Positions 12,982-63,718 of a DNA stretch of 64,000 nucleotides are shown one piece after another; position 1 is the stretch's first letter; every line of letters starts with the position of its first letter. The DNA is from a virus (taxonomy: Duplodnaviria > Caudoviricetes). A program made the position numbers and the translations under genes. The notes under the pieces were generated by a model. It was not told where the DNA came from, made no database searches, and was given only the letters and a program-made list of their open reading frames with translations. Location: positions 160,001-224,000 of IMG/VR virus record IMGVR_UViG_3300028549_001457. One strand, given 5' to 3'.

Positions 12982-13066
12982 TGTCGAGCGCACCTCACTG
13001 GACGGGGTATTGGTCTGTAACACCAGCGTTGGAAACAGCAACAGGGTTCGATCCCTGGCTAGGCAA
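12982..13066 (+). pseudogene. degenerate tRNA-Tyr(GTA)
   Basis: similar to tRNA at 17895 but acceptor mismatch and no CCA. Confidence 0.6.
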
Positions 13067-13080
13067 GGAGGGCAAAATAT

Positions 13081-13175
13081 CGCGGGGTAGAGGAGCCTGG
13101 AGTCCTCATGAGTCTCATAAACTCGAAAAAGGGTCACAAACCCTGTCGCTGGTTCAAATCCAGCCCCCGCTTCCA
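13081..13175 (+). tRNA. tRNA-Met(CAT), initiator-like, with long variable arm (copy 1)
   Basis: C1:U72 mismatch; 22 nt V region with agggt/accct hairpin; TCCA end. Confidence 0.8.
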
Positions 13176-13180
13176 ACAAT

Positions 13181-13270
13181 CGGCGCGTAGCCTTGTAAGC
13201 CGTAAGTAGTTGGTTCAAATCCAACCGAACCCGAAAGGGTTTAACCTCCTCCTCAACTATCTCTGAAGGT
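13181..13270 (+). pseudogene. probable Y-RNA remnant (permuted T arm plus GAAA-capped acceptor stem)
   Basis: gttgg-ttcaaat-ccaac then gaaccc-gaaa-gggttt; 3' caactatct-ctgaagg resembles neighbouring Y-like 3' ends. Confidence 0.4.
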
Positions 13271-13277
13271 TTCATTT

Positions 13278-13351
13278 GGTTCCATAGTTTAACGGTAAAA
13301 TGTTGGCTTGTCACGCCAATGTCAGGGGTTCAACTCCCCTTGGAACCGCCA
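13278..13351 (+). tRNA. tRNA-Asp(GTC)
   Basis: cloverleaf; GCCA end. Confidence 0.9.
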
Positions 13352-13353
13352 AT

Positions 13354-13493
13354 AAGTCTTTCAGTAGCAACATTTGAGATACTTCGCCTGTAAAGCGGGA
13401 TGTCGTGAGTTCGAGTCTCACCAGGGGGCAACCTCTGTAGCTCAGTTGGATAGAGCGCCTAAACCTCTCGGATGGCCTTTCTCTGAAAGATTT
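13354..13493 (+). ncRNA. YrlA-like Y RNA 1 (permuted tRNA domain, acceptor capped by GCAA)
   Basis: outer stem gtctttcag/ctgaaagat, TAG, inner stem catttgag/ctcggatg, ATACTTC, then anticodon arm, T arm, acceptor, D arm. Confidence 0.75.
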
Positions 13494-13500
13494 CTTTTTA

Positions 13501-13652
13501 AACCTTGCAATAGCTAGACAAGCCTTACTTCGCCCGTTAAGCGCGTAAAGCGGTGGTTCGACTCCATCATCCGGCACCAGAACAACCCATGCCGGATTAG
13601 CCCAGTGGTAGAGGCACGTAAAATTCGGCTAGTCAATTTTCTTTGCAAGGTT
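13501..13652 (+). ncRNA. YrlA-like Y RNA 2 (permuted tRNA domain with internal ACCA)
   Basis: outer stem aaccttgcaa/ttgcaaggtt, TAG, gacaagcc/ggctagtc, TTACTTC; atccggc-ACCA-11 nt-gccggat. Confidence 0.75.
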
Positions 13653-13659
13653 CCAATAT

Positions 13660-13737
13660 GGAAGGTGAGCTAGTGTGGTCATTCAGCGAAGGACTGAAAA
13701 TCCTTAGAAATCGGTTCGATTCCGTTACCTTCCACCA
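13660..13737 (+). tRNA. tRNA-Phe(GAA)
   Basis: aagga-ct gaa aa-tcctt arm; ACCA end. Confidence 0.9.
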
Positions 13738-13884
13738 ATTTCCAGTAGTAAGAAGCAGGATACTTCGATTCAGCTCACGCTGAAGTTTCTTGGTTCGATT
13801 CCAAGATTCCCCGCCAAGTTTAATCTCTGGGGAATTGCCTAATGGTTAGGCGATCAAGCCCTTCTTTAAGTTTCTCTGGGAGTT
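13737..13884 (+). ncRNA. YrlA-like Y RNA 3 (permuted tRNA domain with internal GCCA)
   Basis: outer stem aatttccag/ctgggagtt, TAG, agaag..gg/cccttct, ATACTTC; attcccc-GCCA-12 nt-ggggaat. Confidence 0.75.
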
Positions 13885-13918
13885 TTATACGGTTTCTTCT
13901 TTCATAGAAGGAGCCACC

Positions 13919-14470
13919 ATGACACTCAAGCAAGTCGGTATCGCAGTAGGGGCCGTAATTATTTTAGCTGCCGCTGGGTATGGGATCTATAAGGGGAATA
14001 TAAATGCCCTCACTGACCAACAGCAGATTGAACTAGCCTTCAATAAACTCTTGGCTAACTCACCTTCTACGGTTAAAATTCTTGGTGCGGTAGATATCAC
14101 TAAGATATCTAATGAAAAGCTTAAGGGCTCTGATCTAGGTCAGACTGCCATTTATGCAGATGGGTCATTTACAATAAAAATAGATGTGGAAGATGTCAAA
14201 AGATGCTATGATAGGTTAGAACCAGTCCTAGCCCATGAAATTTTCCATGTATGGCAAGCAACTGTTAAGTCAACTCCAGAACAGTTCATTGAAATGGTTA
14301 ATCGTGAGAAAGCCACCACGGACTGGTCCCATAGGACGTTTGAGATTGAAGCTGTAGCATGGGAAAACGTAATACGAAAAGAACTTCTTGAAGCTAACCC
14401 TAAAGAATTCTCAGGGATGCCCGAGACTCGGGAACTGACAAATGCAAGATATAAAGCTTTGAAGAATTAA
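13919..14470 (+). CDS. putative zinc metallopeptidase with N-terminal membrane anchor
   Basis: LAHEIFHVWQ (HExxH) and downstream FEIEA. Confidence 0.6.
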   Translation: MTLKQVGIAVGAVIILAAAGYGIYKGNINALTDQQQIELAFNKLLANSPSTVKILGAVDITKISNEKLKGSDLGQTAIYADGSFTIKIDVEDVKRCYDRLEPVLAHEIFHVWQATVKSTPEQFIEMVNREKATTDWSHRTFEIEAVAWENVIRKELLEANPKEFSGMPETRELTNARYKALKN

Positions 14471-14524
14471 AATCATTCCCGCTTAGCTCAGTGGTTAAAG
14501 CGAATGACTGGTTTAAGAAACTAA

Positions 14525-14599
14525 GGACTGGTAGCTCAGAGGAAGAGCGCAACCCTGTTAAGGTTGATGTCGAGATATCGTAATTCTCCCAGTTCGCCA
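14525..14599 (+). tRNA. tRNA-Asn(GTT)
   Basis: caacc-ct gtt aa-ggttg arm; atypical T loop atcgtaa; GCCA end. Confidence 0.8.
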
Positions 14600-14661
14600 A
14601 TCATGACCATTCCTGGGACGCCTAGTGGTCTGGCAGTAAGTCCGAGAGTGGGAGCCAATCT

Positions 14662-14736
14662 TTTCTCAAGTAGCTAGGAGTAGCGTTACTTCGCTTTTGG
14701 TGCAAAAAACACGCGATCCACTTTTCTCTTGAGAAA
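14662..14736 (+). ncRNA. minimal Y-like RNA 4 (scaffold with a single short hairpin)
   Basis: tttctcaag/cttgagaaa, TAG, gga..gcg/cgc..tcc, TTACTTC, TTTTCT. Confidence 0.6.
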
Positions 14737-14786
14737 GTTTTTCTGTATCTTGTATGTCTCCCACTAAACTGGGAGTGGATTGAAAT

Positions 14787-14862
14787 GGGCCGGAAGATTT
14801 AATGGGAAATCGCTGCCCTTGCACGGCGGAGAATGTCGGTTCGATCCCGATGCGGTCCACCA
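14787..14862 (+). tRNA. tRNA-Ala(TGC)
   Basis: G3:U70; ctgcc-ct tgc ac-ggcgg arm; ACCA end. Confidence 0.85.
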
Positions 14863-14869
14863 ATTTTTA

Positions 14870-15204
14870 GGTAAACCTGGACATCGCTGGCTAACCACCA
14901 GAGGAAAGTCGGGACTCCACAGAGCAACAAGCCAGCTAACTACTGGGCAGGGCAACCTGACGGAAAGTGCAACAGAAAGCAAACCGCCGATGGCCCGAAA
15001 GGGATCAGGTAAGGGTGAAAGGGTGGAGTAAGAGCCCACCGCTGGACTGGTAACAGGACAGGCATGGTAAACCCCTTGTGGAGCAAGGCAAACAGAGGAT
15101 GATGACCCTGCTCGGGTAGTCTTCGGGTTGCTGCTAGAGGCCAACAGTGATGCTGGTCCCAGAGGAATGATGTCACACGACAGAATCCCGCTTATGGTTC
15201 ACCT
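14870..15204 (+). ncRNA. rnpB: RNase P RNA (type A-like)
   Basis: GAGGAAAGTCGGGA and ACAGAATCCCGCTTA form a compensated P4; GGAAAGTGCAACAGAAA, GGTAAACCCC and GAGCAAGGC conserved regions. Confidence 0.95.
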
Positions 15205-15286
15205 ATAATAAATTCGGGCTGGCCTCATGGAGAGGTCGGGGTAACGAGGGCATGCACTCCCTCCCCGCTCGGAAATTCAAAACAAT

Positions 15287-15381
15287 AGCGGGGTAGAGGA
15301 GCCTGGAGTCCTCATGAGTCTCATAAACTCGAAAAAGGGTCACAAACCCTGTCGCTGGTTCAAATCCAGCCCCCGCCTCCA
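15287..15381 (+). tRNA. tRNA-Met(CAT), initiator-like, with long variable arm (copy 2)
   Basis: identical to 13081 copy except positions 1 and 72 (A1:C72). Confidence 0.8.
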
Positions 15382-18812: not shown

Positions 18813-18887
18813 GCGGGTGTAACTCAGTGGTAGAGTGCGACCTTGCCAAGGTCGAAGTCGAGGGTTCAAATCCCTTCACCCGCTCCA
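18813..18887 (+). tRNA. tRNA-Gly(GCC)
   Basis: canonical cloverleaf; TCCA end. Confidence 0.95.
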
Positions 18888-31034: not shown

Positions 31035-31229
31035 AACGCTATATGTGTTTGCGGTGTAGACGCGATAGATTTAGCACTCCCGGCCCACACCGTTGTGGGG
31101 GGATGTTTATTAAACATTTTCGTAAAAGGGTTTGGGGAGACGTTTTCCCCAATGGATTTTTTAAGAGAATCTCTCAGCCCTATTGGGGTGCTTAGATTTC
31201 TTTTTAGGGTAGAAGAGGATATTATACTC

Positions 31230-32375
31230 ATGCTAAAGGTTTCACGATTGTTAAGAGCTACAACCCCGGAGATATCCTCTAAGTTTCCTCCTCAATTAAT
31301 TACCTTACTTCGTAAGCTGAATTCTTTTGGTGAGTTTTATCTCGTTGGGGGCTGCATCCGTGATGCGCTTCTTGGTAGAACGCCTAAAGACTTTGATGTT
31401 ATGGTTGTGGCTCCCTCCCCGCAAGAGCTTGAAAAGATCCTCCCCGTGAAGCAAGTCGGAGCCGCCTTTCCTGTATATCTATATGATACTGAGGACCCAG
31501 AGTTAGGCATTATTGAATTCGCCTATGCCCGTAAAGAGACAAAAACAGGGATTGGGTATAAGGGTTTTGATTTTGAGGTCGTTTCAGATGTTAAAGAGGA
31601 CCTAGCTAGACGCGATCTAACTATAAATGCTCTCGCCTGGAACCCTACTGCAGGACTTGTATCTTTTGATGATAGGGCTATGGATGATGTGCAGACTAAT
31701 ACTCTTAGGCATGTCACGGAAGCTTTTGCGGAAGACCCTCTTCGTGTATTGAGAGCAGCTAGATTTTCAGCACAACTCCCAGGTGATTGGAAAGTGGACC
31801 CCGAGACTATCAAATTAATGAATAGTCTCCAGGGTGAGTTGCCTTCTTTAGCATTGGATAGGATTCGAATTGAGCTAGAAAAATCTCTCAGGGCAGCAAA
31901 ACCAGGGAACTTCTTTCAGGTACTACATCAAGCTGATTGCATGAGTTATTGGTTCCCAGAGTTGGAGTCAAATCTCCCAGCGTTAATTAATTTGGTAAAT
32001 AAGTCTGCAAAATCAGTTAGCTTAATTGAGATGTATTGCCTATTAGCCCAGACAATGCAATCTAATGGTGACGTAAAGACTTTTTGTAAACGGCTTTCTC
32101 TTGCATGGGATCGGGAAATGGCGCTGTGGCGTAATATCCACGCCTGCTCTTTTACCTCCCCTAAAGATTTCTTGATGGTGTATAAAGGTGGGCGTCAAGG
32201 AAGGCTCCCATTTGATAGTATTTACAGACTTTTAGAGATTAATGGGGATACTTCAAGCCAAACCTCCCTTAAGAAAGCGGTGGCTGCTCTTCAAAATCTA
32301 AAGCTCCAAGAGGTCCCACCGTCCGAAATTCCTGCTTTGATGCTTAAAACAGTTTCTTCAGCGTTAGGGATGTGA
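31230..32375 (+). CDS. cca: CCA-adding tRNA nucleotidyltransferase, MLKVS-tagged
   Basis: YLVGGCIRDALLG..PKDFD, FAYARKE, EDLARRDLTINA, EDPLRVLRAARF, ERI-like DRIRIELEK. Confidence 0.9.
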   Translation: MLKVSRLLRATTPEISSKFPPQLITLLRKLNSFGEFYLVGGCIRDALLGRTPKDFDVMVVAPSPQELEKILPVKQVGAAFPVYLYDTEDPELGIIEFAYARKETKTGIGYKGFDFEVVSDVKEDLARRDLTINALAWNPTAGLVSFDDRAMDDVQTNTLRHVTEAFAEDPLRVLRAARFSAQLPGDWKVDPETIKLMNSLQGELPSLALDRIRIELEKSLRAAKPGNFFQVLHQADCMSYWFPELESNLPALINLVNKSAKSVSLIEMYCLLAQTMQSNGDVKTFCKRLSLAWDREMALWRNIHACSFTSPKDFLMVYKGGRQGRLPFDSIYRLLEINGDTSSQTSLKKAVAALQNLKLQEVPPSEIPALMLKTVSSALGM

Positions 32376-38029: not shown

Positions 38030-38331
38030 GCGCTCATGGCGGAATCGGTAGACGCCTTGGACTTCACGTAAGTATTACATGTAGAGCACTTAGTAGGAAA
38101 CTGCTGATGTGAATCCCATCAAATTCGGTGAATACCCCAAGTGGACAACGCCGAGCCAAGCCTGGAGACAGGAAGGTGTAGAGACTAGACGGTGGGGGCC
38201 TAAGGATACTAAATATCTATGGTCAAGGCATAGTCCAGCGCACAACAGGAAACTGGCCATAGCAATATGGAGTGTGATGAAAATCCAATGCCCGTAAGGG
38301 CGTCCCGGTTCGAGTCCGGGTGGGCGCACCA
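38030..38331 (+). tRNA. tRNA-Leu(TAA) split by a group I intron
   Basis: exons 38030-38064 and 38280-38331 rejoin as ttgga-ct taa aa-tccaa; long V arm; ACCA end. Confidence 0.9.
38065..38279 (+). mobile_element. group I self-splicing intron (215 nt, no ORF)
   Basis: P AAATTCGGTGAA, Q AACGCCGAGCCAAG, R GTAGAGACTAGACGG, S AAGGCATAGTCC; 5' exon ends in T, intron ends in G. Confidence 0.9.
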
Positions 38332-38673: not shown

Positions 38674-39216
38674 ATGGGACACTCAAAAAGATTTCAGAAC
38701 AGAAACACGGTTTTAGCTTTATCGTGTCATTTCATCCCAATGGCTGAAATTTCACGCAGAAAAGCAATCAAGGCCATCGTCACTCGTAAGGCTGACATCA
38801 TCACTAATCCTAAGACGCTGGAGACTTCTTCTTGGATTGAGCCTGGACAACCTATTAAGATGATTATCTATAAGATGGTTTCCAAGTCTCCCGGAGAGCC
38901 CCGTTTGCACTCAGGCAACAAGGGCCTAAAGGCGATTATTCGTCGTGACGGTCATAGGTGTTGCTATTGTGGGGCTAAGCTAAAGGGTACCAACTGCACC
39001 GTGGACCACATTGTCCCACGAAGTAAGGGCGGTCAAACTAACTGGAAAAACCTCGTGGCTTGTTGTTTCCGATGCAACCAGATGAAGGGCAGCAAGCTTC
39101 TGGAAGAAAGCGGTATGACCTTACTCCGTAGGCCTACCACCCCCACCATGGTTCTCATGGAGCGCTTCCATAAGTTGGTTGATTTTGATATGTTTGAAAA
39201 AACATACGCAGACTGA
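38674..39216 (+). CDS. HNH endonuclease (McrA-like); start probably 38739
   Basis: IRRDGHRCCYCG...TVDHIVPRSKGGQTNWKNLVACCFRCNQMKG. Confidence 0.9.
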   Translation: MGHSKRFQNRNTVLALSCHFIPMAEISRRKAIKAIVTRKADIITNPKTLETSSWIEPGQPIKMIIYKMVSKSPGEPRLHSGNKGLKAIIRRDGHRCCYCGAKLKGTNCTVDHIVPRSKGGQTNWKNLVACCFRCNQMKGSKLLEESGMTLLRRPTTPTMVLMERFHKLVDFDMFEKTYAD

Positions 39217-40293: not shown

Positions 40294-40669
40294 GGGGGTG
40301 CCATGGTTTTGACAGGTTGTTTATTTGAAGAGTAGTGCAGGTAGGGGTGGGCTGGCCCCTTTAATAAGCCCAAAAGCTATAACTGCCGAAGACACAATGC
40401 TTCTTCAGGCTGCGTAAGCAGCAACCTCTTAGTGAGCGTTTGGTAACTAAGTTGTATGTTCTTCAGAGGGTGGATTCGTCCTACTGATGGGGGATAACAG
40501 ACTGGACTCCGGTGACGCTTTCCTAGCCTGAGTTAAGAGCGTAGAGAGCAAGTCCTTGAATAGGGTTAGCCCAACTCCCTATAGAGGTCACGAAAAATGG
40601 GCTAAACCTGTGAATGAATTACCTTTAGAGGCTTCTTGGACATCGGTTCGATTCCGATCACCTCCACCA
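40294..40669 (+). ncRNA. ssrA: tmRNA, tag peptide (A)AEDTMLLQAA
   Basis: G3:U70 acceptor, TTGAC D-like loop, ATAACT-GCC resume site (40385-40417), T arm and ACCA. Confidence 0.95.
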
Positions 40670-42227: not shown

Positions 42228-42301
42228 GCGGGTGTAACTCAGTGGTAGAGTGCTAGCTTCCAAGCTGGAAGTCGAGGGTTCAAATCCCTTCACCCGCTCC
42301 A
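42228..42301 (+). tRNA. tRNA-Gly body with 6 nt anticodon loop (ttccaa)
   Basis: identical to Gly(GCC) at 18813 outside the anticodon arm; ctagc-ttccaa-gctgg. Confidence 0.7.
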
Positions 42302-43557: not shown

Positions 43558-43773
43558 TTGTCCAGTAGCGAGTATCCGGTTACTTCGTTAATATGACTCA
43601 GTGTTATATTTACCTTGGATGTAAGGTCCCGAAGGAACCACCTGAAGGTAGGGGGGTTAGCGTAAAAACTAACCTTGAGATACATGAGTAACTTCCCTCA
43701 TGGCATCTCTTATCGGGTGGGCATCCCACAGATGCTTAAAAAGTGAACCCCGTATACGTTAATCTCTGGACAG
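43558..43773 (+). ncRNA. Y-like RNA 5 with large multi-hairpin payload
   Basis: tgtccag/ctggaca, TAG, gtatccgg/ccgtatac, TTACTTC; about 170 nt insert. Confidence 0.65.
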
Positions 43774-43779
43774 CACTTT

Positions 43780-43837
43780 CACGGTAGCAAGTAAAGAGTT
43801 CCTTCGGCTATGAAACTCTATACAACAAACCTCCGTG
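43780..43837 (+). ncRNA. minimal Y-like RNA 6
   Basis: cacgg/ccgtg, TAG, gta..gagtt/aactc..tac, TTCCTTC variant. Confidence 0.5.
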
Positions 43838-43845
43838 TTCTTTCC

Positions 43846-44190: not shown

Positions 44191-45657
44191 ATGGCTCGTT
44201 TCGCTAAGACGGAAGTCTCTACTGTTAACACTCCTACTACTGTTAACTTGGCTGGAGGGGAAGCTTTTGCTATGTCCCCTAAGCTTGAGTTTGCTTCGGC
44301 GCTGTTGACTTGCTTCACCACGGATACTTATTACAAGTCCGGTGAGGGTCAGGTTAGTCGCATTGCCGATTTGTCCAAGACTGTTGACCCTTTGTTTGCA
44401 GCAAAGGCAGCTATCTTTACTCGTAAGAAGAATGGCCTCCGGTCTGTAAGCCACATTGTGGCCGGGGAACTCTCTCAGCGTGTGGATATCAAGGGCTTGG
44501 AGTGGACTCGTAAGTTCTACGAGCGGGTTGTCAATCGTCCTGATGACATCACCGAGACTCTTGCATATATCAAGTCCACGAGTGGTCAGAACCTCCGTAA
44601 GTTGAGCAACGCTATGAAGAAGGGTTTCGGCGCGGCTCTCGGTAAGTTTGATTCTTATCAGCTTGCCAAGTATCGTGGAGAGGGTAAGGATCTGAATCTG
44701 TATGATGCGGTCAATTTGCTGCACCCTAAGGCTACTGCTGCATTGACCGAGCTGATGACCGGGACTCTTAAGCCAGCCGAAACTTGGGAGACCAAGCTTA
44801 CTCAGGCTGGTCAGAAGGCATCTTCGGATACCGAGAAGGCCGAAATGAAGGGTCAGGCATGGCGTGAGCTTTTGACTGCTAACAAGCTGGGCTTCATGGC
44901 TTGCATCCGCAATCTTCGCAACATTGCGGAACAGGCTCCTGATGTAATGCCTTTGGCTCTGGAGTTCATTACGGACCCTCATCAGGTTAAGAAGTCCCTG
45001 ATGTTCCCCTTCCAGATTTATACTGCTACCGAAGCAATTCGTGGCACTAAGGCTGATACCCGTGAGGTTAAGCTGGCTCTGGAAAAGGCGATGGAGTTGA
45101 GCCTTGTCAATGTTCCCAAGTTTTCAGGTAAGACCCTGATTGCTGTTGATACCAGTGGATCTATGGCTGGTCGCCCCGTTCAGATTGCTGCGTTGTTTGC
45201 GGCTGTGCTGTTTAAGTCTAACGATGCAGACGTTCTGCGTTTTGCTTCGGGCGCTACCTACCTGGACCTCCACCCAGCGGATAGTCTTACCACGCTCACC
45301 GAGAAGATTCACCGCGCTTCCGGGGGTGGGACCGATTTCCACAGTATCTTCGAAACTGCTAATAAGGTCTATGACCGAATTATCATCCTTTCGGACATGC
45401 AAGCTTGGGTAACTCGTCAGGTTAGTTCTTATTGCGCTGGGACCCCTCATGCCGCACATAAGGCTTACAAGCAGAAATTTGGAGCGGATCCTCGGATCTT
45501 CTCTTTCGATCTGACGGGTCAGGGGACCCTCCAGTTCCCCGAGAGCAAGGTTTTCGCTTTGGCGGGTTTTAGTGACGCCGTTTTGAAGACCATGCAGAAC
45601 CTCGAAATGGACCCTAATGCCCTCGTGCATGAAATCGAGTCTATTAGCTTGACCTGA
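44191..45657 (+). CDS. rsr: Ro60/Rsr RNA-binding protein (TROVE plus vWA domains)
   Basis: NLAGGEAF, DPLFAAKAAIFTR...LRSVSH, YQLAKY, TWET, IRNLRN, PF; DTSGSM, GGGTDF, IILSDMQ. Confidence 0.9.
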   Translation: MARFAKTEVSTVNTPTTVNLAGGEAFAMSPKLEFASALLTCFTTDTYYKSGEGQVSRIADLSKTVDPLFAAKAAIFTRKKNGLRSVSHIVAGELSQRVDIKGLEWTRKFYERVVNRPDDITETLAYIKSTSGQNLRKLSNAMKKGFGAALGKFDSYQLAKYRGEGKDLNLYDAVNLLHPKATAALTELMTGTLKPAETWETKLTQAGQKASSDTEKAEMKGQAWRELLTANKLGFMACIRNLRNIAEQAPDVMPLALEFITDPHQVKKSLMFPFQIYTATEAIRGTKADTREVKLALEKAMELSLVNVPKFSGKTLIAVDTSGSMAGRPVQIAALFAAVLFKSNDADVLRFASGATYLDLHPADSLTTLTEKIHRASGGGTDFHSIFETANKVYDRIIILSDMQAWVTRQVSSYCAGTPHAAHKAYKQKFGADPRIFSFDLTGQGTLQFPESKVFALAGFSDAVLKTMQNLEMDPNALVHEIESISLT

Positions 45658-59699: not shown

Positions 59700-60377
59700 A
59701 TGTTAAGAGTGTCTCGCCTGTTTTTAGCTGATTCTAACCCAAGATATAAGTATCCTAGAACGTTTCATATTCCGGGGAGCCCTGGGGCTACCTCAGATGA
59801 TAAAATATTAAGTAGTATGGATCATTTTAAAGGACAAGAGGTCGTAATAACTGAGAAAATGGATGGGGAAAATACAACCATTTACCCTGACTATTTGCAT
59901 TCTCGATCACTAGATAGTAATAACCATCCCTCAAGGAATTGGGTGAAACGACTCCAGAGTGAGATTGGTTATAAGATACCTGATGGAATGCGGATCTGTG
60001 GGGAGAATGTTTTCGCCCAGCATTCACTCGGGTATGATAAGCTTCCCAGTTATTTCTTAGTGTTTAGTGTATGGGAGGGAGATACGTGTTTGTCCTGGGA
60101 TGACACGGTTCTAATTTGCAATGAACTCAATTTAAAAACAGTTCCAATTCTCTATAAAGGACCCTTTGTGGAGGATAACCTAGAGAAGAAATTTTTCTCG
60201 GGGACCTCTTCTTTTGGGGGTGGGCAGGAGGGTTTTGTAGTTAGGTTGGCTAGGGCGTTTAACCGTGCGGAATTCTCAAAAGCACTCGCTAAATGGGTGC
60301 GGCCAAATCATGTCCAAACTGAGACACACTGGACACAACAGCCAATAGTTCCTAATAAGCTAGAAGAGGGGGACTAG
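59700..60377 (+). CDS. ATP-dependent RNA ligase (Rnl2-like), MLRVS-tagged
   Basis: KYPRTFH, EKMDGEN motif I, GEN, FLVF, EGFVVR, KWVR. Confidence 0.85.
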   Translation: MLRVSRLFLADSNPRYKYPRTFHIPGSPGATSDDKILSSMDHFKGQEVVITEKMDGENTTIYPDYLHSRSLDSNNHPSRNWVKRLQSEIGYKIPDGMRICGENVFAQHSLGYDKLPSYFLVFSVWEGDTCLSWDDTVLICNELNLKTVPILYKGPFVEDNLEKKFFSGTSSFGGGQEGFVVRLARAFNRAEFSKALAKWVRPNHVQTETHWTQQPIVPNKLEEGD

Positions 60378-60424: not shown

Positions 60425-63400
60425 ATGTCTTTACTTGCTAATTCACTAAATAAGCGTGTTAAGCGTAATCTGGTTTCAATTTTAGACTTTGCAGAAGCAG
60501 CGTGGGGGCCTCAAATTGAGCTAACCCCGGCACAAAGATTCTCGGTCAAGTTAATTTATAAGATACCCTTGGATGACAAGGCAAAAGTCATCCGAGTATG
60601 GGATAAGTTCAAAGAGAACTTGCTCTACACCCTTACTGAGACTGAATATCGAAAATATTTAAACGAAGAAGTTGGTAGATTAAATCTCACCCATGATATG
60701 GCTCACATAGAGGGTAACTTCAGCACTTTCATTCGCTGTTGGGGCAGGAGGTCGGGCAAAACGTGCCTACATTCCACGCTAATTAATACACACGATAATG
60801 GACTAGTTAAAATAAGTGATCTTTGGCCTCTAGAGGATAAGGTTAAGGATAACTATATGCCTCTAATTTCCCCGACTTTTGTCATGACTGATCGAGGATG
60901 GAAACAGGCTACTGAGATTTACTACGGAGGGGTTAAGAAACTCTTAAAACTGAAGCTAAGCAACGGAATCTCAGTGGAGCCTTCCCCAGAACATAAATTC
61001 AGGACCCTTGATCTTGAAGGGGCCTATGTCTGGAAATTGGCTGGGGATTTCGTGGTGGGGGATACGTTTTGTTTACTGGCTGAAACACCTATAAGTGAAG
61101 CTCCCACTTCTAAGGACACACTAGAATCAGCTCTTTTCCTTGGGATGCTCTATGGGGATGGTTGGTGGGGTGATGAGTATTCCCTGGGTTTATGCAGTCA
61201 TAAATCTGAGTGGGGGTTGGTTAACTTTGTGGATAGTTTTTTAACAACGCATGAACTTTCTCACCGTAAAAGTGTCTACACAACAAATAGCAACGTATGG
61301 GCTTGGACTATCCATGCATCTTCAGGAAGACCCTTCAAAAGGACGTGGGGTCTCACGTCATACCAGGAGAGTCAAAAAAGAGTTTCTGAAAAAATATTGG
61401 CCTTTCCCCCTGAAGCCCGTAAAGCCTTCCTCTCAGGATTGCTTGCAACAGATGGGCATGTAACTAAAGATTTAGGTCATTTTGAAATTACCCTAAAGCC
61501 TAAAGGCCTCATCGAGGATATTCAGCAGTTATTTCTCTCATTAGGTGTGCATTCAACCATCCACCAGAAAGTTGTAAAGCCTAAGCCAGGGAACCAGGGT
61601 GGAACCTATTGGAAACTTACCACGGTAGGCGCAAACACAAATAAGCTTCTGGACATCTTTAAGTATTGCCCACTAAAGCGTAAGACAGAAGAGCTATTGA
61701 CCAAGCAAGCCAAGCATTCTTATAAGTCTTCTTTCGGCGCTTACGACAATCTGCTGCCTAGATTCGAACGTATTTTCTCACAGCATTCCTTCGGCTATCA
61801 CACTGATCGCACCAAGTCATTTAAAATCACCCCTAAGGGCTTCAATGATTACTATGCCTATTATCAAAAATATCTTGAAGTCTATGCTCATGCACATACA
61901 CTGAGTGCTAGTGACCTCCTTCATTTCCAAAAAGCTAATAACCGCAGAACTACAGGGCTTGAGATTGGCAGAGCTATTTCTAAGGCTATTGCTGATTATA
62001 GGAAGGATTCTCAAGACTCTCAGATTGGACAATCACTTCCTTCACCGGAGTTTACTAAAGAACTGGAAGAACTTAAGTGGATTTTTGATACAATAATCCC
62101 GCTTGAGATTGTCTCCATTGAAGAGTCCGAGGGAGAAGTTTACGACTTACATGTTCCTGATGGGAACACCTACCTAGCAAATGGTATAGTTTCTCATAAT
62201 TCTGAGATCACCGCATTGGATATGGCATATGGGATCTACTTACTCCTTGAGAAGTATAACCCCCATGATTATTACCATATGCCACCCAACACCGAAATCT
62301 TTATCCCTGTGCTGGGAACCTCTCAGGATTCATCTAAACGAACTTTCCGCAAAGTTCGCAATATGTTGTCAAGCTCTGGATACTTCACAAACTACTGCAA
62401 CAAAGAAGATCTGCAGGAACTATTCTGTAAAATATACACACCGTTCCAGCGTGAGCAAAATGCACAGTTCCCGTCTATTATTGTTCAAGCGTTCCCTCTA
62501 TCTGAATCCCAGGTTCGTGGCCCTGCATCTTACAGGTCTGTTTGCGATGAGATCGCTCACTGGCCGCATAGGGGTGCGGTATCAGATCTAGAGGTGCTGA
62601 AGGCTATTGAACCTTCGTTAGCCACATTTAAAACTTCAGAAGACTCCCACTCTGAAGCTATGATTTTCCTGATCTCTAACGCGGGGGTGCGCTCGGGCCA
62701 GTTCTTTGAAATGATTGAAAAGGCTAAAAAAGAGGGGGATAATGCATCAGCCATTGTGTATCAGGCACCTACCTGCGAATTAAACCCTACACGAATTAGT
62801 TCTCATGAACTTTTAGCTTACTTCAATAGGTATGGTGACACCGCTTACCGTACCGAGTATCAGTCTGAATTTGTGGATTCGATCTCTCAGTGGCTCTCCA
62901 TGGAAGAGTTAAATGAGATGTTCAATCAATCCAGATCCAATAATACTATTAGACAGAATAACCCCACACTTGCATACCAGTATTTCCCTAAAGCTATCTG
63001 GCCTCAATACTTTTATGGTTTCGACTTGGGGTTGAAGAATGACGCTGCTGCGGTAGCTATTTGCCATTGGGAAACTAATGAGTTGCTGGCAACCCGTAAA
63101 TTGGTCTTTGATTATGTAGATCGTAGAAAAGCTGGAGAAGGCCAGTATGCACATAAGAAAGAGCTAACCGGGGATGATATCGTTGAATGGCTCTACCAGT
63201 TATCTCAAGTATACCCCATTGCAGATGGTGTTTATGACCAATGGTCTGGGACTCTTTTTGGGCAAATGTTAGCCAAAAAGGGCATTAAGGGCCTTAGAAT
63301 GGAATCTTTCACTGAGTCAACCAATTCCCTCGTATACCTATCCTTTCGTGCATTATCATTAAATCAAGAGCTAAATATCCCCACGCTTAACAATAAAGAT

Positions 63401-63718
63401 CTTGAGAACGAAATTCAGCTTCTGCAATGTGAGTTGCGTCCTGGGAATCGAATTAAGGTTGAGGCCCCCCACGGAGACGAATACCACGATGATAGAGCTG
63501 ACGCTATCGCAAGAGCTTGCTGGGTGGCCATGGGCTTCCTAGAGTCACGAGGGTCAGGAAAGGCTCCAGCTCAGCAGGTAACTCGTATGGGGACCGTCTC
63601 GGGTAACCCTGGGTATATGACCGACAGGGGTGCAGTTTCTCGCTACCGAGCAAGTGCCGCTAGTGACCCTAGATCCTTTGCTCGGATGATGGCTATCAAG
63701 CAGAGTAAGAAGAGATAA
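60425..63718 (+). CDS. large terminase subunit with intein
   Basis: WGRRSGKT Walker A, CDEIAH Walker B, GFDLG RNase H-like motif, HDDRADA. Confidence 0.85.
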   Translation: MSLLANSLNKRVKRNLVSILDFAEAAWGPQIELTPAQRFSVKLIYKIPLDDKAKVIRVWDKFKENLLYTLTETEYRKYLNEEVGRLNLTHDMAHIEGNFSTFIRCWGRRSGKTCLHSTLINTHDNGLVKISDLWPLEDKVKDNYMPLISPTFVMTDRGWKQATEIYYGGVKKLLKLKLSNGISVEPSPEHKFRTLDLEGAYVWKLAGDFVVGDTFCLLAETPISEAPTSKDTLESALFLGMLYGDGWWGDEYSLGLCSHKSEWGLVNFVDSFLTTHELSHRKSVYTTNSNVWAWTIHASSGRPFKRTWGLTSYQESQKRVSEKILAFPPEARKAFLSGLLATDGHVTKDLGHFEITLKPKGLIEDIQQLFLSLGVHSTIHQKVVKPKPGNQGGTYWKLTTVGANTNKLLDIFKYCPLKRKTEELLTKQAKHSYKSSFGAYDNLLPRFERIFSQHSFGYHTDRTKSFKITPKGFNDYYAYYQKYLEVYAHAHTLSASDLLHFQKANNRRTTGLEIGRAISKAIADYRKDSQDSQIGQSLPSPEFTKELEELKWIFDTIIPLEIVSIEESEGEVYDLHVPDGNTYLANGIVSHNSEITALDMAYGIYLLLEKYNPHDYYHMPPNTEIFIPVLGTSQDSSKRTFRKVRNMLSSSGYFTNYCNKEDLQELFCKIYTPFQREQNAQFPSIIVQAFPLSESQVRGPASYRSVCDEIAHWPHRGAVSDLEVLKAIEPSLATFKTSEDSHSEAMIFLISNAGVRSGQFFEMIEKAKKEGDNASAIVYQAPTCELNPTRISSHELLAYFNRYGDTAYRTEYQSEFVDSISQWLSMEELNEMFNQSRSNNTIRQNNPTLAYQYFPKAIWPQYFYGFDLGLKNDAAAVAICHWETNELLATRKLVFDYVDRRKAGEGQYAHKKELTGDDIVEWLYQLSQVYPIADGVYDQWSGTLFGQMLAKKGIKGLRMESFTESTNSLVYLSFRALSLNQELNIPTLNNKDLENEIQLLQCELRPGNRIKVEAPHGDEYHDDRADAIARACWVAMGFLESRGSGKAPAQQVTRMGTVSGNPGYMTDRGAVSRYRASAASDPRSFARMMAIKQSKKR
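60764..62200 (+). mobile_element. intein (479 aa) with LAGLIDADG homing endonuclease
   Basis: N-terminal C after SGKT; PEH block B; LGMLYGDG and LSGLLATDG; C-terminal YDLHV...NGIVSHN followed by S. Confidence 0.9.

What the first reader, a model, noticed from the sequence alone, without database searches (positions are those of the whole stretch)
13501..13884. Permuted tRNA domains keep a perfect 7 bp acceptor stem and internal NCCA
In Y-like RNA 2 (atccggc-ACCA, 11 nt, gccggat) and RNA 3 (attcccc-GCCA, 12 nt, ggggaat) the 3' acceptor strand with discriminator and CCA precedes the 5' strand, whereas RNA 1 closes the stem with a GCAA tetraloop. RNase P cleavage before the 5' strand plus 3' trimming would give a two-piece RNA with a free CCA end tethered to a Ro-binding stem. 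It could be chargeable, a decoy for tRNA nucleases, or an uncharged-tRNA mimic. The phage encodes RNase P RNA 1 kb away. The processing step is inference.
Basis: partly seen in the sequence, partly recalled or inferred. Interest (0 to 1): 0.8.

Follow-up and report, generated by a model that had tools for sequence, protein, structure and literature searches.

The report
Phage Y RNAs with openable tRNA-like ends
A jumbo phage that encodes the RNA-binding protein Ro60 carries small partner RNAs shaped like back-to-front tRNAs, and two of them keep the signals that would let tRNA-processing enzymes cut them open into a two-piece RNA with a tRNA-style CCA end, a design already shown once in Mycobacterium smegmatis and here found to recur in many phages.

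Summary
RNA 2 and RNA 3 each have a T arm, a perfect 7-bp acceptor stem whose 3' strand comes first, then N-CCA, an 11-12 nt linker ending in U, the 5' strand and a D arm. RNA 1 is closed by GCAA.

They are Y RNAs of the YrlA type. The phage encodes Ro60, and six RNAs in the window share one scaffold. That scaffold recurs in dozens of IMG/VR phage contigs, and 26 of 32 of those records encode Ro60.

Among 50 distinct relatives, 20 have exactly 7 bp plus a loop of 11 nt or more. In these, C74 is kept in 19/20 and A76 in 18/20, but full CCA in only 5/20. This matches the 3' flanks of the tRNA genes in the same loci. In this phage 43 of 44 tRNA genes encode CCA.

That supports RNase P opening and 3' trimming. 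The same processing was shown experimentally for M. smegmatis YrlA (Chen et al. 2014), so the idea is not new. No transcript data exist here, so processing stays inferred. Charging and decoy roles are untested.

This scan had already noted closed-acceptor YrlA-like RNAs in other phages.

The parts
13354..13493 (+). Y-like RNA 1: outer stem, UAGC, inner stem, AUACUUCG, V hairpin, T arm 13405-13421, 6-bp acceptor stem closed by GCAA (13422-13437), D arm, UUUCU, outer stem
   Evidence: Rfam YrlA RF02553 hit at 13397-13462, 43.6 bits, E 1.4e-7, below the gathering score of 69. Folds.
13501..13654 (+). Y-like RNA 2, open-type. T arm 13552-13568, 3' acceptor strand 13569-13575, A73 13576, CCA 13577-13579, linker 13580-13590 (U at -1), 5' acceptor strand 13591-13597, D arm from 13598. 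Predicted RNase P site between 13590 and 13591.
   Evidence: Sequence, folds, cofold of the two predicted pieces with ddG -21 kcal/mol, family comparison.
13660..13737 (+). tRNA-Phe(GAA) with encoded CCA, wedged between RNA 2 and RNA 3. RNase P must act on this precursor.
   Evidence: ARAGORN; Rfam tRNA 47.2 bits.
13738..13884 (+). Y-like RNA 3, open-type. T arm 13789-13805, 3' acceptor strand 13806-13812, G73 13813, CCA 13814-13816, linker 13817-13828 (U at -1), 5' acceptor strand 13829-13835, D arm from 13836. Predicted RNase P site between 13828 and 13829.
   Evidence: Sequence, fold z -2.6, cofold ddG -15 kcal/mol.
14661..14737 (+). Y-like RNA 4: same scaffold (UAGC, UUACUUCG, UUUUCU, outer stem) but no tRNA-like module
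14868..15209 (+). Phage-encoded bacterial type A RNase P RNA, full length. No RnpA protein gene was found in the phage.
   Evidence: Rfam RF00010 268.5 bits, E 1.7e-86. PF00825 absent from the 278,785-bp record.
31095..32375 (+). CCA-adding-enzyme / poly(A)-polymerase-type nucleotidyltransferase
   Evidence: PF01743 5.8e-18 and PF12627 5.8e-8.
43558..43773 (+). Y-like RNA 5: same scaffold with a large non-tRNA payload, about 420 nt upstream of Ro60 on the same strand
43780..43840 (+). Y-like RNA 6: scaffold variant with UUCCUUCG, followed by a terminator-like hairpin
44191..45657 (+). Ro60 orthologue (TROVE plus Ro60-type vWA domain), 488 aa
   Evidence: PF05731 1.3e-16 and PF25045 2e-7. 46.7% identical to a protein of the uncultured 635-kb phage LR745206.1.

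Best explanation
RNAs 1-3 are phage Y RNAs of the YrlA type. A terminal stem with conserved internal-loop motifs is the presumed Ro60-binding module. It carries a circularly permuted tRNA-like module in the order T arm, acceptor stem, D arm.

They are transcribed inside the phage's tRNA array. RNA 1 stays closed by its GCAA tetraloop.

RNAs 2 and 3 look like a tRNA-tRNA junction folded on itself. Each has 7 bp stacked on the 5-bp T stem, then N73-CCA, an 11-12 nt spacer and U at -1.

The likely pathway, all inferred:
1. RNase P (host protein with host or phage RNase P RNA) cuts 5' of G13591 and G13829.
2. 3' exonucleases trim the spacer back to the encoded CCA at 13579 and 13816.
3. The phage or host CCA-adding enzyme repairs any over-trimming.

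The product is a two-piece RNA held together by the acceptor, inner and outer stems. It has a tRNA-like 5'-phosphate and a 3'-CCA end, and is presumably bound by the phage Ro60.

Shown: sequence anatomy, family conservation, Ro60 co-occurrence. Inferred: transcription, cleavage, trimming, Ro60 binding. What the opened end then does is unknown.
For: 1. Anatomy is exact. All three RNAs fold into terminal stem, V hairpin, T arm, acceptor stem and D arm.

2. The Rfam YrlA model hits RNA 1 on the + strand at E 1.4e-7.

3. The phage encodes Ro60. Two RNAs with the same scaffold sit just upstream of it.

4. The scaffold is outer stem, UAGY, 10-13 nt, (A/U)UACUUCG, then UUUCU before the 3' outer strand. 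It recurs in 50 distinct phage RNAs, and 45 of these have a 3' partner with at least 6 of 7 outer-stem positions paired. 26 of 32 host records encode TROVE.

5. T stem and acceptor stem covary: 97% of cells paired against 57% when shuffled and 37-55% when slid.

6. Among relatives, a loop of 11 nt or more goes with a stem of exactly 7 bp in 20 of 24 cases. In those 20, N73 is A in 13, C74 is kept in 19 (p 1e-15 against 14% C in the rest of the loop) and A76 in 18. The rest of the loop is A/U-rich and unconserved, like a spacer.

7. tRNA genes in the same loci also keep C74 and mostly read CAA or CTA. In this phage 43 of 44 encode CCA, 33 of 43 have U at -1 and 27 of 43 can pair -1 with 73, as RNAs 2 and 3 do. 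The closest Ro60 match in the cultured/GenBank phage collection, LR745206.1, has an open-type Y RNA with U-CAA, and the one tRNA gene whose 3' flank I read reads G-CAA.

8. Precedent: M. smegmatis YrlA has a 7-bp stem, is cut by M1 RNA at the predicted site, and occurs in vivo as 82-nt and 65-nt halves bound to Rsr, with CA added to complete CCA (PMC4201824; 10.1101/312249).

9. The two predicted pieces (79+64 nt and 79+56 nt) cofold with ddG -21 and -15 kcal/mol.

10. tRNA-Phe lies between RNAs 2 and 3, so RNase P must visit this precursor. The phage also carries RNase P RNA and a CCA-adding-type enzyme.
Against: No transcript, end-mapping or binding data exist for this uncultured phage, so cleavage is inferred only.

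Full CCA is not conserved across homologues (5 of 20).

N73 can pair with -1 in 14 of 20 open-type RNAs, including both here. That would give an 8-bp stem, which could shift or weaken RNase P cleavage. The phage's own tRNA genes show the same pairing in 27 of 43.

The canonical YrlA motif GNCGAAN0-1G is absent. RNAs 2 and 3 get no Rfam YrlA hit. They lie 30 kb from Ro60, not within 4 kb. Ro60 binding is therefore supported only by co-occurrence.

The relatives were collected with a motif pattern plus a stem filter. Acceptor-stem pairing statistics are therefore partly circular. The T-stem, loop and 3'-scaffold statistics are not.
Confidence: 0.6

Rival explanations
1. They are Y RNAs, but the acceptor loop is never cut. 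The 7-bp stem, NCCA and spacer would be inherited marks of an origin from, or gene conversion with, tandem tRNA genes. The RNA would act as a closed tRNA mimic, like Salmonella YrlA.
For: Most characterised YrlA RNAs are closed, and no RNase P cleavage of the Salmonella or Deinococcus RNAs was detected (PMC4201824; 10.1101/312249). -1 can pair with 73 in 14 of 20, extending the stem. Position 75 is free to vary. There are no expression data.
Against: C74 (19/20) and A76 (18/20) stay fixed while the stems covary and the rest of the loop diverges in sequence and length (11-34 nt). That indicates selection, not leftover ancestry. Long loops go with exactly 7 bp, the tRNA geometry that RNase P measures. 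The one tested RNA with this geometry is cleaved in vivo.
Confidence: 0.27
2. They are true circularly permuted tRNA genes of the Cyanidioschyzon type. The ends would be cut and ligated into a circle, for example by the phage RNA ligase, and the linker removed to give a decoding tRNA.
For: The 3' half, CCA, linker and 5' half are in the same order as in permuted tRNA genes. The phage encodes an RNA ligase (PF09414, ORF 59700-60377). Wang et al. raise this possibility for YrlA in general.
Against: There is no anticodon arm. Where it should be stands the long stem with UAGY, UACUUCG and UUUCU motifs, shared with RNAs 4-6 that have no tRNA module. Neither ARAGORN nor the Rfam tRNA model calls them. 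The held literature reports no bacterial splicing endonuclease.
Confidence: 0.03
3. It is a chance resemblance or a decayed pair of adjacent tRNA genes (a dimeric-tRNA false positive) with no function.
For: Chen et al. warn that dimeric tRNAs can score as YrlA. The region is a dense tRNA array.
Against: The two acceptor strands pair with each other perfectly. No matching outer halves exist. The scaffold and core are conserved with covariation in dozens of phages that encode Ro60.
Confidence: 0.02

Closest known systems
Mycobacterium smegmatis YrlA (Chen et al. 2014, RNA 20:1715, PMC4201824)
   Same: A Ro60-associated Y RNA with a permuted tRNA-like module and a 7-bp acceptor stem. It is cut by RNase P at the tRNA 5'-end position and trimmed at the 3' end to finish in CCA. 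Both halves stay bound to Rsr. The half sizes are similar: 82+65 nt there, 79+64 and 79+56 nt predicted here.
   Different: In M. smegmatis only part of CCA is encoded and CA is added. Here the full CCA is encoded, as in 43 of the phage's 44 tRNA genes. Here the carrier is a phage, and there are two open-type copies plus a closed one inside a tRNA array 30 kb from Ro60. The stem motifs are UAGY, UACUUCG and UUUCU instead of GNCGAAN0-1G. Processing here is untested.
Salmonella Typhimurium YrlA (Rfam RF02553; structure in Wang et al. 2018, bioRxiv 10.1101/312249)
   Same: Order T arm, acceptor stem, D arm; a closed 6-bp acceptor stem as in RNA 1; YUAY before the V region; a terminal stem formed by the 5' and 3' ends.
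   Different: RNAs 2 and 3 have 7 bp plus a 15-16 nt loop starting N-CCA and get no Rfam hit. The GNCGAAG motif is absent from all six RNAs.
Circularly permuted tRNA genes of Cyanidioschyzon merolae (Soma et al. 2007, as cited in 10.1101/312249)
   Same: The 3' half with its acceptor strand lies upstream of the 5' half. The linker at the acceptor end is removed by tRNA end-processing enzymes.
   Different: Those genes have an anticodon arm that is re-formed by splicing-type circularisation and give decoding tRNAs. Here the anticodon side is a Y-RNA stem.
Two-piece tmRNA from permuted ssrA genes of alpha-proteobacteria and some cyanobacteria (from my own knowledge, not checked here)
   Same: A permuted gene in which the CCA-bearing acceptor piece precedes the 5' piece. 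Excision of the intervening segment gives two base-paired RNAs with a chargeable tRNA-like end.
   Different: tmRNA carries an mRNA module, is charged with alanine through G3:U70 and works with SmpB. RNAs 2 and 3 have G3/C3 paired with C70/G70 and no coding part. The window's own tmRNA (40294-40669) is an ordinary one-piece RNA.

Membership tests
YrlA-type Y RNA (Rfam RF02553; Chen et al. 2014) | Ro60/TROVE protein encoded by the same genome | tested here: met
   ORF 44191-45657: PF05731 1.3e-16 and PF25045 2e-7.
YrlA-type Y RNA (Rfam RF02553; Chen et al. 2014) | RNA gene within about 4 kb of Ro60 on the same strand | tested here: not met
   RNAs 1-3 lie 30 kb upstream on the same strand. RNAs 5 and 6, with the same scaffold, do lie 350-630 nt upstream of Ro60.
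YrlA-type Y RNA (Rfam RF02553; Chen et al. 2014) | Permuted tRNA-like core: T arm, acceptor-type stem, D arm with tRNA consensus loops | tested here: met
   Sequence, the Rfam alignment of RNA 1, and family alignment with covariation.
YrlA-type Y RNA (Rfam RF02553; Chen et al. 2014) | Score at or above the Rfam gathering threshold (69 bits) | tested here: not met
   RNA 1 scores 43.6 bits. RNAs 2 and 3 give no hit even at E up to 10.
YrlA-type Y RNA (Rfam RF02553; Chen et al. 2014) | GNCGAAN0-1G motif near the 5' end (presumed Ro60 contact) | tested here: not met
   Absent from all six RNAs. The conserved motifs are UAGY and (A/U)UACUUCG on the 5' side and UUUCU on the 3' side.
YrlA-type Y RNA (Rfam RF02553; Chen et al. 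2014) | Terminal stem formed by the 5' and 3' ends, and YUAY before the V region | tested here: met
   Folds. An outer-stem 3' partner with at least 6 of 7 positions paired in 45 of 50 relatives. UUAC in RNA 2 fits YUAY; AUAC in RNAs 1 and 3 fits only its last three positions.
YrlA-type Y RNA (Rfam RF02553; Chen et al. 2014) | Bound by Ro60 | not testable with these tools
   Only co-occurrence: 26 of 32 records with the scaffold encode TROVE.
RNase P-opened YrlA (M. smegmatis type) | Acceptor stem of exactly 7 bp stacked on a 5-bp T stem | tested here: met
   13569-13575 with 13591-13597, and 13806-13812 with 13829-13835, both perfect.
RNase P-opened YrlA (M. smegmatis type) | Discriminator plus at least C74 after the 3' strand, and a single-stranded leader before the 5' strand | tested here: met
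   A-CCA with an 11-nt leader ending in U, and G-CCA with a 12-nt leader ending in U. C74 is kept in 19 of 20 open-type relatives.
RNase P-opened YrlA (M. smegmatis type) | Cleavage by RNase P and a CCA 3' end in vivo | not testable with these tools
   No RNA run was listed for this uncultured phage.
Circularly permuted tRNA gene | 3' half upstream of 5' half, joined by a linker at the acceptor end | tested here: met
Circularly permuted tRNA gene | Anticodon stem-loop that can be re-formed from the transcript ends | tested here: not met
   The ends form the conserved Y-type stem shared with RNAs that have no tRNA module. No tRNA call from ARAGORN or Rfam.

The most novel reading that the evidence does not exclude
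The opened form is the working form. A Ro60-tethered, anticodon-less tRNA acceptor-T minihelix with a free CCA end would either be aminoacylated, or serve the phage as a decoy or sensor for host enzymes and defence toxins that act on the tRNA 3' end (CCA-modifying or acceptor-cleaving toxins, exonucleases). The closed copy, RNA 1, would serve a different partner. Open and closed copies are kept side by side in at least seven other contigs, which would fit a division of labour.
Probability: 0.12. Interest if true: 0.8.

Novelty: new variant of a known kind. Interest (0 to 1): 0.45.

Why it matters
Y RNAs that mimic tRNA are known, and one of them (M. smegmatis YrlA) is known to be opened by RNase P. 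That case has been treated as an exception.

The comparison here suggests that an open-type acceptor end is a regular, selected state of many phage Y RNAs. It sits beside closed copies in the same gene cluster and follows the tRNA 3'-end convention of the tRNA genes in the same loci.

If confirmed, phage Ro60 particles would carry a real tRNA-like 3' end. That points to the tRNA end-processing, repair or charging machinery, or to defence systems that attack it, as the partner of the still unexplained tRNA-like module.

It also gives concrete, cheap tests with predicted cleavage sites to the base. Finally, it defines a Y-RNA scaffold that the Rfam YrlA model detects only in part.

Tried and rejected
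Searches that gave nothing:
- Expression: no RNA holder was listed for 13300-15250 or 13354-13886. Only microbial-mat DNA runs hold the stretch. This is no evidence either way.
- Close relatives in IMG/VR, using the downstream ORF 13919-14470 and using Ro60: none found.
- blastn of 13000-15300 and of a related cluster against cultured phages: only tRNA and RNase P RNA matches.
- Two primers from Chen et al., used to fetch the M. smegmatis YrlA locus from genome contigs: no exact match. I could not compare its loop directly.
- The Annual Review on bacterial Ro60 and the supplements of Chen et al. are not held.
- The first loose motif scan returned mostly chance matches, so I replaced it with a tighter pattern.

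Readings considered and rejected:
- Minus-strand reading. ACUUCGCC is the reverse complement of the YrlA motif GGCGAAGU. Rejected because the T- and D-loop consensus, the Rfam hit and all tRNA genes are on the + strand.
- Alanine or histidine identity for RNAs 2 and 3. There is no G3:U70 and no G-1:C73. A few relatives do have G-1:C73.
- Dimeric-tRNA artefact and true permuted tRNA gene (see rivals).

Full report
**Setting**

The window is bases 160001-224000 of a 278,785-bp IMG/VR phage record that CheckV rates 95% complete. It holds:
- 44 tRNA genes by ARAGORN;
- a one-piece tmRNA and a full-length type A RNase P RNA at 14868-15209 (268.5 bits);
- a CCA-adding-type nucleotidyltransferase at 31095-32375;
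- an RNA ligase at 59700-60377;
- a Ro60 orthologue with TROVE and Ro60-type vWA domains at 44191-45657.

DNA runs that hold the stretch come from microbial mats.

**Observation**

RNA 2:
- T arm 13552-13568.
- atccggc 13569-13575, A 13576, CCA 13577-13579.
- An 11-nt linker, 13580-13590.
- gccggat 13591-13597, then a D arm.

RNA 3:
- T arm 13789-13805.
- attcccc 13806-13812, G 13813, CCA 13814-13816.
- A 12-nt linker, 13817-13828.
- ggggaat 13829-13835, then a D arm.

RNA 1 closes a 6-bp stem with GCAA.

All three fold into a long terminal stem with internal loops, a small V hairpin, a T arm, an acceptor stem and a D arm. No complete tRNA overlaps them, so they are not the dimeric-tRNA false positives that Chen et al. 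warn of.

**What they are**

The Rfam YrlA model matches the core of RNA 1 on the + strand. The score is 43.6 bits at E 1.4e-7, below the gathering score of 69.

I confirmed them at 13365, 13511, 13746, 14671, 43566 and 43785. The last two lie just upstream of Ro60 on the same strand, the classic Y-RNA position.

The scaffold runs as follows:
- an outer stem;
- UAGY;
- 10-13 nt of inner stem;
- (A/U)UACUUCG;
- the payload;
- the inner-stem 3' strand;
- UUUCU;
- the outer-stem 3' strand.

A pattern scan of IMG/VR with the 5' motifs plus a T loop, followed by a script, gave 50 distinct RNAs with the same permuted core. In 45 of the 50 the 7 nt before UAGY have a 3' partner with at least 6 of 7 positions paired, in most of them directly after a UUUCU-like run. 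That feature was not used to find them.

Of 32 viral records carrying these RNAs, 26 encode a TROVE protein. Four of the six that do not are fragments estimated at 5-39% complete.

In an alignment of 46 cores, the T stem is 98% paired with compensatory changes at four of five pairs. No shuffled or slid control comes near.

These are therefore Y RNAs of the YrlA kind, but of a subfamily that the Rfam model sees only in part. The canonical GNCGAAN0-1G motif is absent from all six RNAs.

**The open-type acceptor end**

Among the 50 relatives the acceptor closure falls into classes.
- Twenty have short loops of 4-6 nt on stems of 5-7 bp.
- Twenty have a loop of 11-34 nt on a stem of exactly 7 bp. 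Only four long loops sit on shorter stems.

In the 20 open-type RNAs:
- The first loop base (N73) is A in 13.
- The second is C in 19 (p about 1e-15, against 14% C in the rest of the loops).
- The fourth is A in 18.
- The third varies: A 7, C 6, T 5, G 2.
- Full CCA occurs in 5, two of them in this window.
- The remainder of the loop is A/U-rich, unconserved and variable in length, as expected of a spacer.
- The base before the 5' strand is U in 10.

The same convention holds for the ordinary tRNA genes of the same loci.
- C74 is encoded in more than 90% of them, mostly as CAA or CTA and only sometimes as CCA.
- In this phage 43 of 44 tRNA genes encode CCA, 33 of 43 have U at -1, and 27 of 43 can pair -1 with N73, just as RNAs 2 and 3 do.

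The closest Ro60 match in the cultured/GenBank phage collection is the 635-kb uncultured phage LR745206.1 (46.7% identity).
- It has Y-like RNAs upstream of its Ro60.
- It also has an open-type Y RNA next to a tRNA gene. Its loop starts U-CAA.
- The one tRNA gene whose 3' flank I read there reads G-CAA.

The Y-RNA loop thus looks like a tRNA 3' trailer plus a 5' leader written in the dialect of the local tRNA genes. RNAs that share the same D-arm type (for example in L095, L140 and L179) keep the open state while the stem covaries and the loop diverges.

**Mechanism**

The simplest reading is that tRNA end-processing enzymes handle this loop.

There is an experimental precedent. M. smegmatis YrlA is the only tested YrlA with a 7-bp acceptor stem.
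- It is cut by E. coli M1 RNA at the tRNA 5'-end position.
- It is found in cells as 82-nt and 65-nt halves that both co-precipitate with Rsr.
- The 5' half carries an added CA that completes CCA.

The authors raise possible aminoacylation or protection from exonucleases (PMC4201824; restated in 10.1101/312249).

For the window I therefore infer the following steps.
1. RNase P cuts between 13590/13591 and between 13828/13829.
2. Exonucleases trim back to the encoded CCA at 13579 and 13816.
3. A CCA-adding enzyme repairs the end if needed.

The predicted pieces (79+64 nt and 79+56 nt) cofold stably, with ddG of -21 and -15 kcal/mol relative to the separate pieces.

RNase P certainly meets this precursor. 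tRNA-Phe lies between RNAs 2 and 3, and tRNA-Asp ends 2 nt before RNA 1.

The phage RNase P RNA keeps a CGGGU stretch where, from memory, the bacterial consensus places the GGU that pairs with RCCA (alignment; inference). The phage has no RnpA gene.

For homologues with C74 only, I infer that trimming stops at C74 and CA is added, as in M. smegmatis. From my own knowledge, bacterial RNase T is blocked by 3' C residues.

**Cautions**

- No RNA data exist, so cleavage, trimming and Ro60 binding are all inferred.
- -1:73 pairing could shift the cleavage site.
- The set of relatives was collected with a motif pattern and a stem filter. The acceptor pairing numbers are therefore partly circular. 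The loop, T-stem, outer-stem and Ro60 numbers are independent of that filter.
But the C74 and A76 conservation and the match to the local tRNA genes argue for the processing model, not against it.

**Rivals**

- A closed, never-cut mimic whose tRNA-junction marks are inherited. This remains possible (about 0.27).
- A true permuted tRNA gene. This is very unlikely because there is no anticodon arm and the stem is shared with RNAs that have no tRNA module.
- Chance or a decayed tRNA pair. This is excluded by conservation.

**Novelty**

The class (YrlA), its description as a circularly permuted tRNA, and RNase P opening with a CCA end are all published.

What appears new, as far as the held literature shows:
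- The open type is a recurrent, selected state in many phage Y RNAs.
- It coexists with closed copies in the same gene cluster.
- It follows the local tRNA 3'-end convention, with full CCA encoded here.
- It sits on a scaffold that lacks the canonical Ro-binding motif.

I rate it a new variant of a known kind, of moderate interest.

Earlier notes of this scan had already reported closed-acceptor YrlA-like RNAs beside Ro60-like genes in other phages. A preprint reports that a Ro60-like protein of phage Bas63 counters the ppl defence system (10.1101/2024.10.10.617714). Thermus phage phiLo Ro60 binds two phage Y-like RNAs and host PNPase (PMC12135203).

Noticed in passing
L128, L138, L140, L149, L154, L181, L184 and others (IMG/VR loci); window tRNA genes for contrast: In many phage tRNA arrays that do not encode CCA, the base after the discriminator is still C in more than 90% of tRNA genes. 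The flanks read N-CAA, N-CTA or N-CAG. This is a C74-only convention that I have not seen described. In the window's phage 43 of 44 genes encode the full CCA.
   Followed up: partly
window 14868-15209: The phage carries a full-length type A RNase P RNA (268.5 bits), but no RnpA protein gene was found in the 278,785-bp record. Microcystis phage MaAM05 and two Acinetobacter phage contigs have a similar, unannotated stretch.
   Followed up: partly
window 13209-13243: A T arm (gttggttcaaatccaac) is followed by a 6-bp stem capped by GAAA, with no D arm after it. This looks like a tRNA-type minihelix. It lies after the first of two near-identical 95-nt tRNA-Met-like genes (13081-13175 and 15287-15381).
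   Followed up: no
window 43625-43635: The payload of Y-like RNA 5 contains GGUCCCGAAGG. This resembles the GGUCCGA that X. laevis Ro60 contacts (quoted in PMC4201824) and the CGAA motif used to define Y RNAs. It is the only CGAA in the six RNAs.
   Followed up: no
window 42228-42301: ARAGORN calls a tRNA with a two-base anticodon (cc). Its acceptor and D arm are identical to tRNA-Gly at 18813. It could be a decayed copy or an unusual anticodon loop.
   Followed up: no
window 38066-38259, 38674-39216 and 60425-63718: A group I intron (51.2 bits) lies near an HNH endonuclease ORF. A 1097-aa ORF contains an intein with a LAGLIDADG homing endonuclease.
   Followed up: no
L133, L140, L155, L159, L179, L184 (IMG/VR loci): Y-RNA clusters in other phages repeatedly combine one open-type RNA with one or two closed ones. 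Groups sharing a D-arm type keep their open or closed state across contigs. One example is a closed group with stem ATTTGCC/GGCAGAT and D arm TAGACAAGTGGATAAGTC.
   Followed up: partly
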